Shown piece after piece: positions 1,460 to 4,400 of a stretch of 12,506 bases of DNA. Position numbers: made by a program. Positions within the stretch are counted from its first letter, which is position 1. Every line of letters begins with the position of its first letter. Source of the stretch: a virus (Duplodnaviria; Heunggongvirae; Uroviricota; Caudoviricetes); IMG/VR virus record IMGVR_UViG_2681813454_000001; one strand, given 5' to 3'.

Positions 1460-4400
1460 TAATTCTGGTCAACGACCAGTTGAGCGGATTCGCGTTTAAA
1501 CTCTGCGCTGAAATTTCTTTTTTTCATTATGGCACCTGTGTTGTTCTGAGGTGAGCATATCACCTCTGTTCAGGTGGCCAAATTCAGTAAACCACTTCAA
1601 ACTTAAATGGTCAGCAGCTTTATGGATTGTTAGTTGGTGGTGGCATCATAAACGCAGCAGTATTAGCGGGGATGCTAAAAACGGCTGCGTTTGTTGTTCC
1701 TGCTGCTGGTGTCGTAGGAGGAGCTGCGAAGGCATACGAAAGCCCTGTTATACGAAATGCCTTGTTACGTCTGGCAAATACGCCAAAAGGTAGCACAGCA
1801 TATGACAGAGCGATCAGTACGGTCACACAATCGCTCACCAGAGTCGCACAGGCATCACAAAAAGAAGCTCAATAACTGGCAGCCACGGATGGCTAATTTT
1901 TATTCTTTGATCTCGTCCACAGGTAAAGAAGAGCAATGGCAAGACAGGAAACAGAGAATAGATAACCTACCTCATATGGTGCGCCAAAAAAATTAGCTAT
2001 TGATACGGGCAAAAAAGCCGAAGCGATCAGAATTGAAAGGCAAAAAATAAGCCCAGTAACATAGTTTATTAAACTCTTAAATGAGAAACGTTTTGCTTGA
2101 TTTACGGTCTCAGCGAGTGATCGCTTAACGATGGATAAAAGCAAATAGATGGCGACAGTAGCTAATGCCCCTTTCCACCAGTCTGGATATAGTTTTGCGA
2201 CAATCAGCCCAAGGAAAACCATGATGACAGACTGAGCATTCACACCAACCTCCTTAGTTTTGCGCAGGATACCAGATGATGTATAGGAGTGGGAGTAAAG
2301 TTAGTCGGTGATAGAACGGTGGTTGCATAATGATATCACGTGACGTAAACTTATTGCGCATAGCGTGTATTCAATGGATGCATAGCTATTGATAATCTCC
2401 GATAAGAAGGAGGTTTGTATGAGCAATGAGACTAATGGGATTGATGAAATGTTTAGCTTGAACGCTGCCAAAGCTGGAGTCGCAATAGGTTTGCTATTAC
2501 AGCAAGCTTCTGCGTTCAGTTGTGAGGTGGTTGTTACTGATAACGTTCAGCACGCTTACCATCAATCCTCATTCAGCAGTGAACGGGCTAATGATGAGCT
2601 TCATGAGGCGGTGTCTTCGATTAAAGAATTGTCTCGAATGCTGAAATACGCTTATCGTGTTCTTGCAAACGCTACCGATGAGAATGTAGACAATGTGTTG
2701 TCTATCATTGAACCAGAAAAGTCTCGATTGATAGAGCATCAATTGAGAGGACTTGAAGGGGCAATGAAATCGGTATTCAAAGAAGCTTCTGCTGATTTTA
2801 AAGAGATCGCAAGAGATATCTATATCGTTGTTGCTGATGCCAGATCTGCCGTAACCAACCTGAATAGTCTTATTAAACAACGCTCATGTGTTCCGGTTGT
2901 TTTTGATAGTTCCGTAGATATGGCTGGTTTGCGTGCGCTTGCTGAGCACGGGACTCGTGTGTTTCACTCTGGTAACTTCCACTGAGGTAAAACATGCAAG
3001 TAACCGTGGAATATAATCAGGATAGTTTTGACTATTTTTTCTCCCCGTTTTTGTTGAGTTTCCTGATTTAAAACAAACACTTGTAGATGATTTTATCATC
3101 TACAAGTCTACGGGAACGTTGCCCAGCTATTTTGGCAGAGACACCTCTTATCATCGACCTCCTGATATTGAAGATGCAGGCCTTATGCACCTTCATTTAG
3201 CAATTGGTGAAAATAAATTTGAGCCAATAAAAAATGGCACAGATATCAGCACACCGCAAAAGTTGCAGTGGCATAAAACATCCAATACCGCTCTCGTTTA
3301 TGCACAAAATCTTTTTGATGAGAACAGGTATTCATTGATTGCTCTTTTTCATCCTGTAGCTCACATGTCTGCTAACAATCATAATAGAATGAGAGTGTTA
3401 GCAGGGTATGCGAGAGACTTTAGAAACACTATGTTTGACTAAACCCACCGTCAGGTGGGTTTTTTATAAGGAGTAATCATGATTTACCCATCAAACAACC
3501 CACCAGTTTGCCTGATTGGATGCCAGCCTTGCAGTTTTTATGGAATTAATTATGCCATGCTCAAGAGCCTTGTTAGCATCCAAAATGGTCGAGTCTGCTA
3601 TCAGGGATGCCCACCTAATATGGGTTCCGATGTCGATATTGAACGTCTCAACGAAGCGATCAAGATCGTTATCGAGGCATTTCCCGTACTCTCTCAATCT
3701 GGCATGGTCGGCGGCTGGGGAGGCAAAGCACCATAATAGAGGATGTAACAGGAATCTTGATAATGGGTTTGCGAAACGTTCTGAGCCAGCCAGGAAAACG
3801 ATATTAGCTATGGATTCAACATTGCTTATGTTGTGAGTTCTAACGGTAACAGGGAGTGACTTAAGAAAGTTATACGCAGTAAAGCCAGCAGCAGTTTCCC
3901 CTCCCTGACTTGATATATGGATATTTAATTCAGTTGCGCCTTGAGATAATGCGGTGAGACAGTGGTTCTGAAGTTGCCCAACAGTGGCAGTGTTAACAGG
4001 GCATAAGAAATGAATTGTGTGCAGCATTATTTTTCATCCTTAGCATACATGGTCTTTAGCGTCTCAAGTAGCGCCTCTTTGAATTTATCAGCTTCTTGCT
4101 GAGCAAATGACTCAACTGACTTTGGCGACCTATCTTCATCAATCGCGGCTTGCAAAATCATGACGATCTCGGAGTTAACAGAGCGACCATTTTTTGATGC
4201 TCTGACAGCAAGAGCCTCGCGTAAAGATTCAGGGATTCTTACCGTAGTTGGAGAAATTGACACACCCTTTGCCATATAACACCTTTGGTATTCAATTTGA
4301 TAGCAAAGTGTATGCAAAAAAATTTTGACTAGATATACTCACTTTGCTATCTTTTGTATTCGAAAAGAGTTGTTTGCGTGGAGGGTAACATGGAGAAAGA

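What the first reader, a model, noticed from the sequence alone, without database searches (positions are those of the whole stretch)
4299..4351. Perfect 12-bp inverted repeat in the mnt/arc divergent control region
GATAGCAAAGTG and CACTTTGCTATC, 29 bp apart, flank a -35-like TTGACT between two RHH repressor genes. These are candidate operator half-sites for the Arc-like and Mnt-like proteins. Their sequence differs from what I remember of the P22 operators, which would imply a distinct immI specificity.
Basis: seen in the sequence. Interest (0 to 1): 0.4.

Follow-up and report, generated by a model that had tools for sequence, protein, structure and literature searches.

The report
Mirrored repressor sites at ant promoter
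The 12-bp inverted repeat is real: its two copies sit on the two back-to-back promoters of a P22-type antirepressor control region in an E. coli K1 prophage, most likely as binding sites for its small Arc/Mnt-type repressors, which makes it an ordinary but uncharacterised relative of a classic phage switch.

Summary
The repeat is exactly as described: GATAGCAAAGTG at 4299-4310, CACTTTGCTATC at 4340-4351, 12/12, 29 nt apart. Shuffles give P about 6e-4.

It lies between a Mnt-like gene and an Arc-like gene, followed by ant, in a complete P22-type immI module. sar RNA and a tailspike gene are present. The host is a CUS-3-like E. coli K1 prophage, and 97 of 5,426 complete E. coli genomes carry the module.

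The arms are not two half-sites of one operator, because their centres are 41 bp apart.
- **Right arm:** it covers the spacer and extended -10 of the predicted Pant. It is the right part of a 21-mer that aligns without gaps with the P22 arc operator (14/21; arm 9/11).
- **Left arm:** it is half of an 18-bp palindrome on the mnt side and carries a mirror-image TGnTATC.

The same layout recurs in about 14 diverged lineages. The arm skeleton is kept, some positions change in both arms, and extra degenerate copies occur. A second dyad (4351-4367) sits at the Pant start.

My reading is that each arm combines a promoter core with a repressor site. I favour the Arc-like protein as the binder, but Mnt-like is not excluded. 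No binding was tested. This is a new member of a known kind, of modest interest.

The parts
4299..4310 (.). Left arm of the inverted repeat, GATAGCAAAGTG. Read on the minus strand it is CACTTTGCTATC followed by AA, which is a TGnTATCAA extended -10-like element facing mnt.
   Evidence: In 9 lineages 9 of 12 positions are invariant.
4340..4351 (.). Right arm, CACTTTGCTATC. It covers the spacer, the TG and the first four bases of the -10 of the predicted Pant.
   Evidence: In 9 lineages 7 of 12 positions are invariant.
4293..4310 (.). O_L: 18-bp palindrome CAATTTGAT|AGCAAAGTG. The left arm is its right half.
   Evidence: It matches its own reverse complement at 14/18 positions here, 16/18 in the common GATATC variant, and 14/18 in 611R6 and L181.
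4330..4350 (+). O_R: 21-mer TAGATATACTCACTTTGCTAT at the position of the P22 arc operator, between the -35 and -10 of Pant.
   Evidence: It is 14/21 identical to P22 ATGATAGAAGCACTCTACTAT at the same offset from the -35. Only 2 of about 25,000 21-mers in the window score that high. The epsilon34 record annotates this stretch as arcO.
4325..4353 (+). Predicted Pant: TTGACT, 17 bp, TATCTT, with TG at 4345-4346. An A7 tract (4316-4322) lies just upstream.
   Evidence: Promoter scan. The same prediction is made in 611R6, L107 and P22.
4297..4305 (-). Candidate Pmnt extended -10 (TGcTATCAA), 21 nt from the mnt start codon. This is inferred and weak.
   Evidence: My own relaxed scan. The invariant columns TGATA.CA correspond to TG.TATCA on the minus strand. 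No P22-type Pmnt (TTGAGA-17-TATCAT) is found here.
4351..4367 (.). D dyad CTTTTGTATTCGAAAAG, spanning the -10 to about +8 of Pant. It is a candidate second (Mnt-type) operator.
   Evidence: 6 of 8 pairs are symmetric. Compensatory double changes occur in L179 (CATTTG..CGAAATG) and L087 (TTATGATTCATAA).
4283..4293 (.). X: CTTTGGTATTC, a direct copy (10/11) of the left half of D. It lies over the mnt Shine-Dalgarno and leader.
   Evidence: family D2. Conserved in L178-L180.
4262..4275 (.). Degenerate arm-like copy ACACCCTTTGCCAT overlapping the mnt start codon.
   Evidence: family D1, 79% identical to 4337-4350.
4027..4275 (-). Mnt-like RHH repressor gene (82 aa, with a C-terminal helix like Mnt).
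   Evidence: Pfam Arc 9.5e-11. 1MNT 2.3e-6 over residues 12-73.
4390..4542 (+). Arc-like RHH repressor gene (50 aa).
   Evidence: Pfam Arc 5.1e-12. PDB Arc entries score 1e-4 to 1e-8.
4708..4774 (-). sar antisense RNA with its terminator.
   Evidence: Rfam RF00262, 83.9 bits, E 7e-18. Terminator-like site.
4775..5677 (+). ant antirepressor gene.
   Evidence: P22_AR_N 4e-45 and P22_AR_C 2e-28.

Best explanation
The two arms are mirror-image copies of a composite element that combines a promoter core with a repressor site. One copy sits on each of two back-to-back promoters that control a P22-type immI (antirepressor) module.

The right arm covers the spacer, the TG and the -10 of Pant, which drives arc and ant. 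It is the right-hand part of a 21-bp element homologous to the P22 arc operator. The left arm lies 41 bp away on the other side of the -35 and A-tract. It is half of an 18-bp palindrome and carries the mirror-image TGnTATC facing mnt.

A ribbon-helix-helix repressor that recognises the shared 12-mer would occupy the -10 region of both promoters. That would shut off arc-ant and mnt together, which is what Arc does in P22 from a single operator. I favour the Arc-like protein as that binder. The second dyad at the Pant start (4351-4367), and its copy near the mnt ribosome site, are the better candidates for the Mnt-like protein.

Shown here: the repeat, its significance, its position relative to a predicted promoter, the homology of the module, and the conservation and co-variation of the arms. 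Inferred: the mnt promoter, protein binding, and which protein binds.
For: 1. The repeat is perfect and improbable by chance (P about 6e-4).
2. The module is a complete immI: two RHH genes, ant, sar and a downstream tailspike gene.
3. The right arm overlaps the predicted Pant -10 and spacer. The 21-mer at 4330-4350 aligns without gaps with the P22 arc operator (14/21; arm 9/11). The epsilon34 record annotates that stretch as arcO.
4. Arms occur at the same offsets from the -35 (-26 and +15) in about 14 lineages with different repressor N-termini.
5. Across 9 aligned lineages 81.5% of arm cells stay complementary. Two positions change on both sides and the skeleton ATA.CA...TG is invariant.
6. 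In L107, which has P22-like Arc and Mnt, a 9-bp perfect inverted repeat (TATCACCGT/ACGGTGATA) flanks the -35 in the same way. A separate canonical Omnt-like palindrome lies downstream. Arm-type sites are therefore distinct from the Mnt operator there.
7. Left-arm position 8 is A where Arc residue 7 is Lys (window clade, L178-L181, L187). It is C where that residue is Arg (611R6 clade, L183, L184, L188). This holds although the left arm is physically next to mnt, not arc.
8. Between the window and 611R6, Arc differs at 2 of its first 13 residues and the left arm changes at 1-2 of 12 positions. Mnt differs at 8 of its first 15 residues, and D and X are only about 50% identical.
9. The D dyad shows compensatory changes.
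Against: - No binding data exist, and the assignment to Arc-like is indirect.
- L184 and L046 share the whole intergenic region although their Arc beta-strands differ (SRIVVRMP against VDCIVRMS).
- One window-type contig has Arc K7R with unchanged arms (L069).
- The right arm varies among lineages with the same Arc type. Compare CACTTTGCTATC with CACAATGATACT in L181.
- The arm format CAC-N-(G/T)TG plus a 5-bp flank also resembles half of the P22 mnt operator. In PhiR12-type modules Arc and Mnt share one N-terminus and one motif.
- Several invariant arm positions (TG.TA) are explained by promoter function alone.
- The mnt promoter is only weakly predicted.
- The window 21-mer itself has no dyad symmetry and lacks the TAGA boxes of the P22 arc operator.
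Confidence: 0.55

Rival explanations
1. The arms are sites for the Mnt-like repressor (a tetramer), not for Arc. Mnt would repress Pant at the right arm in the lysogen and autoregulate at the left palindrome. Arc would bind elsewhere, for example at 4331-4339 or the D dyad.
For: - The arm format CAC-N-(G/T)TG plus a 5-bp flank is that of half a P22 mnt operator (AGGTC CAC G GTG GACCT).
- In PhiR12-type modules the left site is a full palindrome, GCTACAC A GTGTAGGC.
- 611R6, L046 and L184 share Mnt-type N-termini and an identical left arm while their Arc proteins differ.
- The GTG-to-TTG change in the arm core coincides with loss of the N-terminal 'RD' motif in the window-type Mnt.
- The 9 bp between the -35 and the right arm follow the Mnt type: PYG goes with TAATATT across three Arc types.
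Against: - mnt and the intergenic region may simply be inherited as one block, so this tracking can be linkage.
- L181 has an RD-type Mnt but a window-like left arm (CAAA) together with a window-like Arc.
- L188 changes right-arm position 5 with the same Mnt.
- In L107 the arm-type repeat coexists with a separate canonical Omnt.
- The flanks of canonical Omnt sites (GTGG..) differ from arm flanks (GTGAT / TTGCT).
Confidence: 0.25
2. The symmetry reflects only two mirror-image extended -10 promoter elements (TGcTATCTT for Pant, TGcTATCAA for Pmnt). No repressor reads the arms. The operators are the D and X dyads and the bases next to the -35.
For: The positions invariant in both arms across 9 lineages are C, A, then TG, then TA. 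TG.TA is the extended -10 core. The scan flags TG before the Pant -10. Arm positions 5 and 8 are freely polymorphic among near-identical relatives.
Against: - Identity extends to positions with no promoter role: CAC and TT in the spacer, the 'n' of TGn, and a shared non-consensus C in the hexamer.
- CAC is invariant in all right arms.
- Extra arm-like copies occur where no promoter is expected (4262-4275, 4280-4291; R2 in PhiR12).
- In P22 the homologous 21-mer is a proven operator (established knowledge; annotated).
Confidence: 0.12
3. The arms pair in RNA. Rightward read-through (late) transcripts would form a 12-bp hairpin followed by a U-rich stretch, acting as an attenuator, terminator or processing site.
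For: The RNA fold of 4290-4365 gives the 12-bp stem at -16.2 kcal/mol, z = -2.9. UCUUUUGUAUU follows the stem. Some changes fall on both sides across lineages.
Against: - The loop is 29 nt and no terminator is called.
- The left arm is upstream of the Pant start, so it is absent from arc-ant mRNA.
- In 9 lineages two stem positions are unpaired in 5-6 sequences. Only 2 pairs show double changes, and 159 of 500 shuffles do as well on that measure.
- Single mismatches are the majority state in close relatives and no compensated double variant is seen.
- Extra copies in both orientations fit protein sites, not one stem.
Confidence: 0.05

Closest known systems
Phage P22 arc operator (Oarc) and Arc repressor in the immI region
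   Same: - The gene order is the same (mnt divergent from arc-ant, with sar).
- The element lies between the -35 and -10 of Pant at the same offset.
- Identity is 14/21, with the skeleton GATAx-xxx-CAC-N-xxx-CTAT shared and the right arm 9/11.
- The binder would be a small RHH protein.
- The expected effect is the same: repression of both divergent promoters.
   Different: - The TAGA/TCTA boxes are replaced (TATA / TTTG), and the 21-mer has no dyad symmetry here.
- The base-reading residues differ (K, L, R in place of Q, N, R).
- A second copy of the right half lies 41 bp upstream inside an 18-bp palindrome that P22 lacks. The window has 24 more bases than P22 between the mnt start and the -35.
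- P22 has an overlapping Pmnt (TTGAGA-17-TATCAT) that is not found here.
Phage P22 mnt operator (Omnt) and Mnt repressor
   Same: - The Mnt-like protein is homologous over the RHH and the C-terminal helix (1MNT, 2.3e-6).
- The arm format (CAC, N, G/T-TG, then a 5-bp flank) equals one half plus the core of Omnt.
- A 17-bp dyad (D) sits at the Pant start, roughly where Omnt sits.
   Different: - The arms are not local palindromes.
- The window core is CAC-T-TTG rather than CAC-G-GTG.
- D has a different sequence and lies about 8 bp closer to the -10.
- The Mnt N-terminus lacks the RD motif and has P, T, R in place of H, N, R.
L106/L107-type immI modules (IMG/VR contigs with P22-like Arc and Mnt)
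   Same: An inverted repeat flanks the -35 of Pant (9-bp perfect, TATCACCGT/ACGGTGATA). The right arm lies in the spacer and a further dyad lies downstream.
   Different: The arms are closer together (21 nt between them) and shifted by 3 bp. The downstream dyad is a canonical Omnt-like palindrome. A P22-type overlapping Pmnt is still predicted.

Membership tests
P22-type immI region ('ant moron') | Divergent mnt and arc-ant genes encoding two RHH (Arc-family) repressors | tested here: met
   Pfam PF03869 for both (9.5e-11 and 5.1e-12). Best solved relatives are Mnt and Arc.
P22-type immI region ('ant moron') | Antirepressor gene of the P22 Ant type downstream of arc | tested here: met
   P22_AR_N 4.3e-45 and P22_AR_C 2.3e-28.
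P22-type immI region ('ant moron') | sar antisense RNA across the ant start | tested here: met
   Rfam RF00262, 83.9 bits against a gathering score of 43, at 4708-4774(-). 95.6% identical to P22.
P22-type immI region ('ant moron') | Located just upstream of the tailspike gene of a P22-like phage | tested here: met
   A tailspike with Head_binding domain (9e-65) starts at 5778. The closest phage is phiv205-1 at 98.6%.
P22-type immI region ('ant moron') | Repressors bind operators overlapping Pant and Pmnt | not testable with these tools
   Only position, conservation and co-variation could be examined.
P22 arc operator (Oarc) | Lies between the -35 and -10 of Pant | tested here: met
   4330-4350 lies within TTGACT-17-TATCTT. 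This holds for the right arm only.
P22 arc operator (Oarc) | 21 bp with two inverted TAGA boxes (partial dyad) | tested here: not met
   The box positions read TATA and TTTG. P22 Oarc matches its own reverse complement at 12/21 positions; the window 21-mer shows no comparable symmetry (scored one base off, at 4331-4351). Overall identity to P22 is 14/21.
P22 mnt operator (Omnt) | 17-bp near-perfect palindrome centred on CAC-N-GTG | tested here: not met
   The arms have CAC-T-TTG and no local dyad. P22 Omnt scores 16/17. PhiR12-type relatives do have such a palindrome at the left site.
P22 mnt operator (Omnt) | Overlaps the Pant start site | tested here: inconclusive
   The arms do not. The D dyad at 4351-4367 does (6 of 8 pairs, compensatory variants).
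Extended -10 sigma-70 promoter | TGnTAnnnT, with or without a -35 | tested here: inconclusive
   Right arm: met (TGcTATCTT with TTGACT at 17 bp). Left arm: TGcTATCAA lacks the final T and has no -35.
Intrinsic terminator | GC-rich short-loop hairpin followed by a U run | tested here: not met
   No terminator is called at the arms. The loop is 29 nt and the stem has 5 G-C pairs of 12.

The most novel reading that the evidence does not exclude
In this lineage the overlapping promoter pair of P22 has been pulled apart into two back-to-back promoters. The operator has been duplicated in mirror image so that one 12-mer serves both. The Arc-like and Mnt-like proteins read the same or overlapping sites, as they must in PhiR12-type modules where they share an N-terminus. 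In lineages such as 611R6 and L181 the left palindrome carries one 'Arc-type' and one 'Mnt-type' half. The switch would then be set by competition or mixed occupancy of two paralogous repressors on shared sites, not by separate operators.
Probability: 0.15. Interest if true: 0.55.

Novelty: new member of a known kind. Interest (0 to 1): 0.3.

Why it matters
P22 immI is a textbook system for beta-sheet DNA recognition, yet only the P22 version has been studied (PMC2629481). This module is carried by about 2% of complete E. coli genomes, including K1 neonatal-meningitis and avian pathogenic strains.

If the assignment holds, it gives a natural set of about 14 Arc/Mnt variants with matched operator variants. 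That set could be used to learn recognition rules of ribbon-helix-helix proteins. It would also show how a bidirectional switch can be rebuilt by duplicating an operator. It does not open a new kind of biology.

Tried and rejected
- **One bipartite operator.** Rejected. The arm centres are 41 bp apart, and each arm sits in its own larger element.
- **TACACT (4312-4307) as the mnt -10, by analogy with P22.** Dropped. The P22 scan shows a much better overlapping Pmnt, TTGAGA-17-TATCAT. That promoter has no counterpart in the window.
- **Assigning the arms by which repressor N-terminus they track.** The two informative mosaics (L181, L184) point in different directions, and linkage of mnt to the intergenic region confounds the test.
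- **More types from species-representative genomes.** The backbone pattern search gave only 8 chance hits in unrelated taxa. IMG/VR held only four types.
- **Polymorphism among 33 near-identical relatives.** There are too few substitutions to show constraint on the arms.
- **The D dyad as a 5' RNA hairpin of arc mRNA.** Unlikely. Its left half overlaps the -10 and is not transcribed from Pant.
- **IHF site.** Reading by eye, TATCAA is present but the TTR part of the consensus is missing.
- **Literature.** No paper on non-P22 immI operators was found. Berggrun and Sauer 2001 (PMC30133) is not held. Statements about Arc and Mnt contact residues and operator boxes therefore rest on my memory of the Sauer-lab work.
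Full report
**The observation.** The window reads GATAGCAAAGTG at 4299-4310 and CACTTTGCTATC at 4340-4351. The repeat finder reports 12 nt, 100% complementary, with 29 nt between the arms. In 20,000 shuffles of the 114-nt intergenic region, a perfect inverted repeat of at least 12 bp with a 3-60 nt loop arose in 0.06-0.07% of cases. The only other perfect inverted repeat of at least 10 bp in the whole window is at 3079-3107. The 12-mer does not recur elsewhere in the window beyond chance-level two-mismatch hits.

**Context.**
- The minus-strand ORF 4027-4275 (82 aa) and the plus-strand ORF 4390-4542 (50 aa) both match Pfam Arc. Their best solved relatives are P22 Mnt and P22 Arc respectively.
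- Downstream lie a 57-aa ORF, a sar antisense RNA (Rfam RF00262, 83.9 bits) and ant (P22_AR_N and P22_AR_C). A tailspike gene with a P22 head-binding domain and endosialidase domains follows.
- The region is 98.6% identical to Escherichia phage phiv205-1.
- It occurs in 97 of 5,426 complete E. coli genomes and is 100% identical in ATCC 11775, S88 and APEC O1:K1 strains.
- This is therefore a complete P22-type immI module in a CUS-3-like K1 prophage.

**Position on the promoters.** The scan finds one sigma-70-like promoter in the intergenic region: TTGACT (4325-4330), a 17-bp spacer, and TATCTT (4348-4353) with TG before the hexamer. The right arm therefore covers the spacer, the TG and the first four bases of the -10. 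An A7 tract lies just upstream of the -35. The same promoter is predicted in 611R6, L107 and P22.

**Comparison with P22.**
- Counting from the -35, the window 21-mer TAGATATACTCACTTTGCTAT (4330-4350) aligns without gaps with the P22 arc operator ATGATAGAAGCACTCTACTAT at 14/21 positions. Only 2 of about 25,000 21-mers in the window score that high.
- The arm itself (ATAGCAAAGTG) is 9/11 identical to the operator's right half read on the bottom strand.
- The epsilon34 GenBank record annotates that stretch as arcO and as the Pmnt/Pant promoter.
- The positions of the two TAGA boxes (from memory of Raumann et al. 1994) read TATA and TTTG here, and the window 21-mer shows no dyad symmetry like that of P22 Oarc.
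- The window has 24 more bases than P22 between the mnt start and the -35. The left arm lies in that extra stretch.

**Each arm belongs to a larger element.**
- The left arm is the right half of an 18-bp palindrome at 4293-4310. It matches its own reverse complement at 14/18 positions here. The score is 16/18 in the commoner GATATC variant and 14/18 in 611R6 and L181.
- Weaker arm-like copies lie at 4262-4275 and 4280-4291.
- Next to the right arm a 17-bp dyad, CTTTTGTATTCGAAAAG (4351-4367), spans the -10 to about +8 of Pant. Its left half recurs 10/11 as a direct copy at 4283-4293, over the mnt ribosome site.
- The region is thus roughly mirror-symmetric about 4325, in the order X, L, -35, R, D.

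**Relatives.** I collected about 14 lineages from several sources:
- phage records;
- IMG/VR through either protein and a backbone pattern;
- contigs encoding diverged homologues.

All share the A-tract and TTGACT backbone, and all have arm-type 12-mers at offsets -26 (inverted) and +15 from the -35. The arm sequences are:

| Lineage | Left arm | Right arm |
|---|---|---|
| Window clade | GATA(G/T)CAAAGTG | CACTTTG(C/A)TA(T/C)C |
| 611R6 clade | GATATCACAGTG | CAC(G/A)GTGATA(T/C)(G/A) |
| L046, L184, L189 | GATATCACAGTG | CACGATGATAC(T/C) |
| L181 | GATATCAAATTG | CACAATGATACT |
| PhiR12 type | TGCTACACAGTG | CACGGTGTAGTA, plus a second copy 21 bp downstream |

In an alignment of nine lineages, 9 of 12 left-arm columns and 7 of 12 right-arm columns are invariant. 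Of all arm cells, 81.5% remain complementary, against 20-55% when the partner is slid by 1-3 columns. Two positions change on both sides. Among 33 near-identical IMG/VR contigs only 8 have the perfect 12/12.

**What the invariants mean.** The positions invariant in both arms are CA, TG and TA. TG.TA is the core of an extended -10. Part of the symmetry is therefore promoter symmetry: TGcTATCTT faces arc and TGcTATCAA faces mnt. P22 and L107 have a good overlapping Pmnt (TTGAGA-17-TATCAT or TAGACT). Nothing comparable exists in the window lineages. This fits a relocated mnt promoter on the left arm, with a start inferred near 4290, but that promoter is weakly predicted. Identity between the arms also extends to positions with no promoter role: CAC, TT, the n of TGn, and a shared non-consensus C. 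CAC is invariant in every right arm. Arm-like copies also occur where no promoter is expected. I therefore read each arm as a promoter core with an overlapping repressor site.

**Which repressor binds?**

Evidence for Arc-like:
- The positional and sequence homology to the P22 arc operator.
- In L107, which has P22-like Arc and Mnt, a perfect 9-bp inverted repeat flanks the -35 in the same way while a separate canonical Omnt-like palindrome lies downstream.
- Left-arm position 8 is A with Arc Lys7 in six lineages and C with Arg7 in four, although the left arm is next to mnt.
- Arc and the left arm change little between the window and 611R6, whereas the Mnt N-terminus and the D and X dyads change a lot.

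Evidence for Mnt-like:
- The arm format equals a half-operator plus the core of P22 Omnt.
- PhiR12-type modules have a full palindrome at the left site, and there Arc and Mnt share one N-terminus.
- L184 and L046 share the whole intergenic region and Mnt but differ in Arc.
- One contig has Arc K7R with unchanged arms.

Linkage of mnt to the intergenic region confounds the second set. I put Arc-like (alone or together with Mnt-like) ahead, without proof. The D dyad follows the Mnt type and shows compensatory double changes in L179 and L087. It is the better candidate for a Mnt operator.

**Other rivals.** An RNA hairpin of the two arms is thermodynamically possible (-16.2 kcal/mol, z = -2.9). 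However, the left arm is not in the Pant transcript and the loop is 29 nt. No terminator is called. Mismatched states are the majority in close relatives, with no compensated double variant. Copies in both orientations fit protein sites better.

**Novelty.** I found no paper on operators of non-P22 immI regions. The epsilon34 genome paper states that only the P22 version has been studied (PMC2629481). RefSeq annotates the two genes only as Arc-family DNA-binding proteins. The finding is a new, uncharacterised member of a well-known kind. It differs in layout by a duplicated, mirror-image site and apparently separated promoters.

Noticed in passing
window 350-1599 and 6764-8013: Two identical 1,250-bp IS3-family elements carrying transposase ORFs (HTH_Tnp_1 and rve domains). 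The second splits the endosialidase tailspike gene (5778-6797 and 7988-9976) and has CGT on both sides, so this prophage probably cannot make a tailspike.
   Followed up: partly
window 10135-10463: 47 perfect tandem copies of the heptamer AAGACTC inside ORF 10130-10519, just before the integrase gene (11349-12506, minus strand). From memory, this looks like the phase-variable repeat of the neuO O-acetyltransferase gene of CUS-3-type K1 prophages.
   Followed up: partly
window 3079-3107: A 13-bp perfect inverted repeat with a 3-nt loop (ACTTGTAGATGAT ttt ATCATCTACAAGT), 12 nt upstream of a YafO-toxin-like ORF (3119-3442; Pfam 1e-19). It may be an operator or a terminator. No antitoxin partner was looked for.
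   Followed up: no
window 3491-4027 (minus strand): A Clp-protease-like ORF (Pfam CLP_protease, 2e-11) starts where the mnt-like gene stops. It is therefore probably co-transcribed with the maintenance repressor from the prophage. phiv205-1 annotates it as a head maturation protease.
   Followed up: no
window 4539-4712; L002 1540-1809; L001 2005-2226; L189 850-1035: The slot between arc and ant holds unrelated small ORFs in different relatives: 57 aa here, 89 aa in EC.P3, 73 aa in 611R6, and a ClpX zinc-finger-like ORF in L189.
   Followed up: no
L004 (Escherichia phage PhiR12_1) 1028-2504: A related mnt/arc/ant module sits between tail genes L and K of a lambdoid siphophage. Its Arc has a Mnt-like N-terminus (VRDIAPLGIRIP against ARDISPLGIRIP), and all five sites in its control region share one motif, CACNGTGTAGCA.
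   Followed up: partly
L093-L099 (IMG/VR contigs): In several 611R6-type contigs the arc gene carries the same frameshift (..NSEVM*). The repressor gene appears inactivated while the control region is intact.
   Followed up: no
L107 604-678: A module with P22-like Arc and Mnt has a 9-bp perfect inverted repeat flanking the -35 and also a canonical Omnt-like palindrome. It is an architectural intermediate between P22 and this window.
   Followed up: partly
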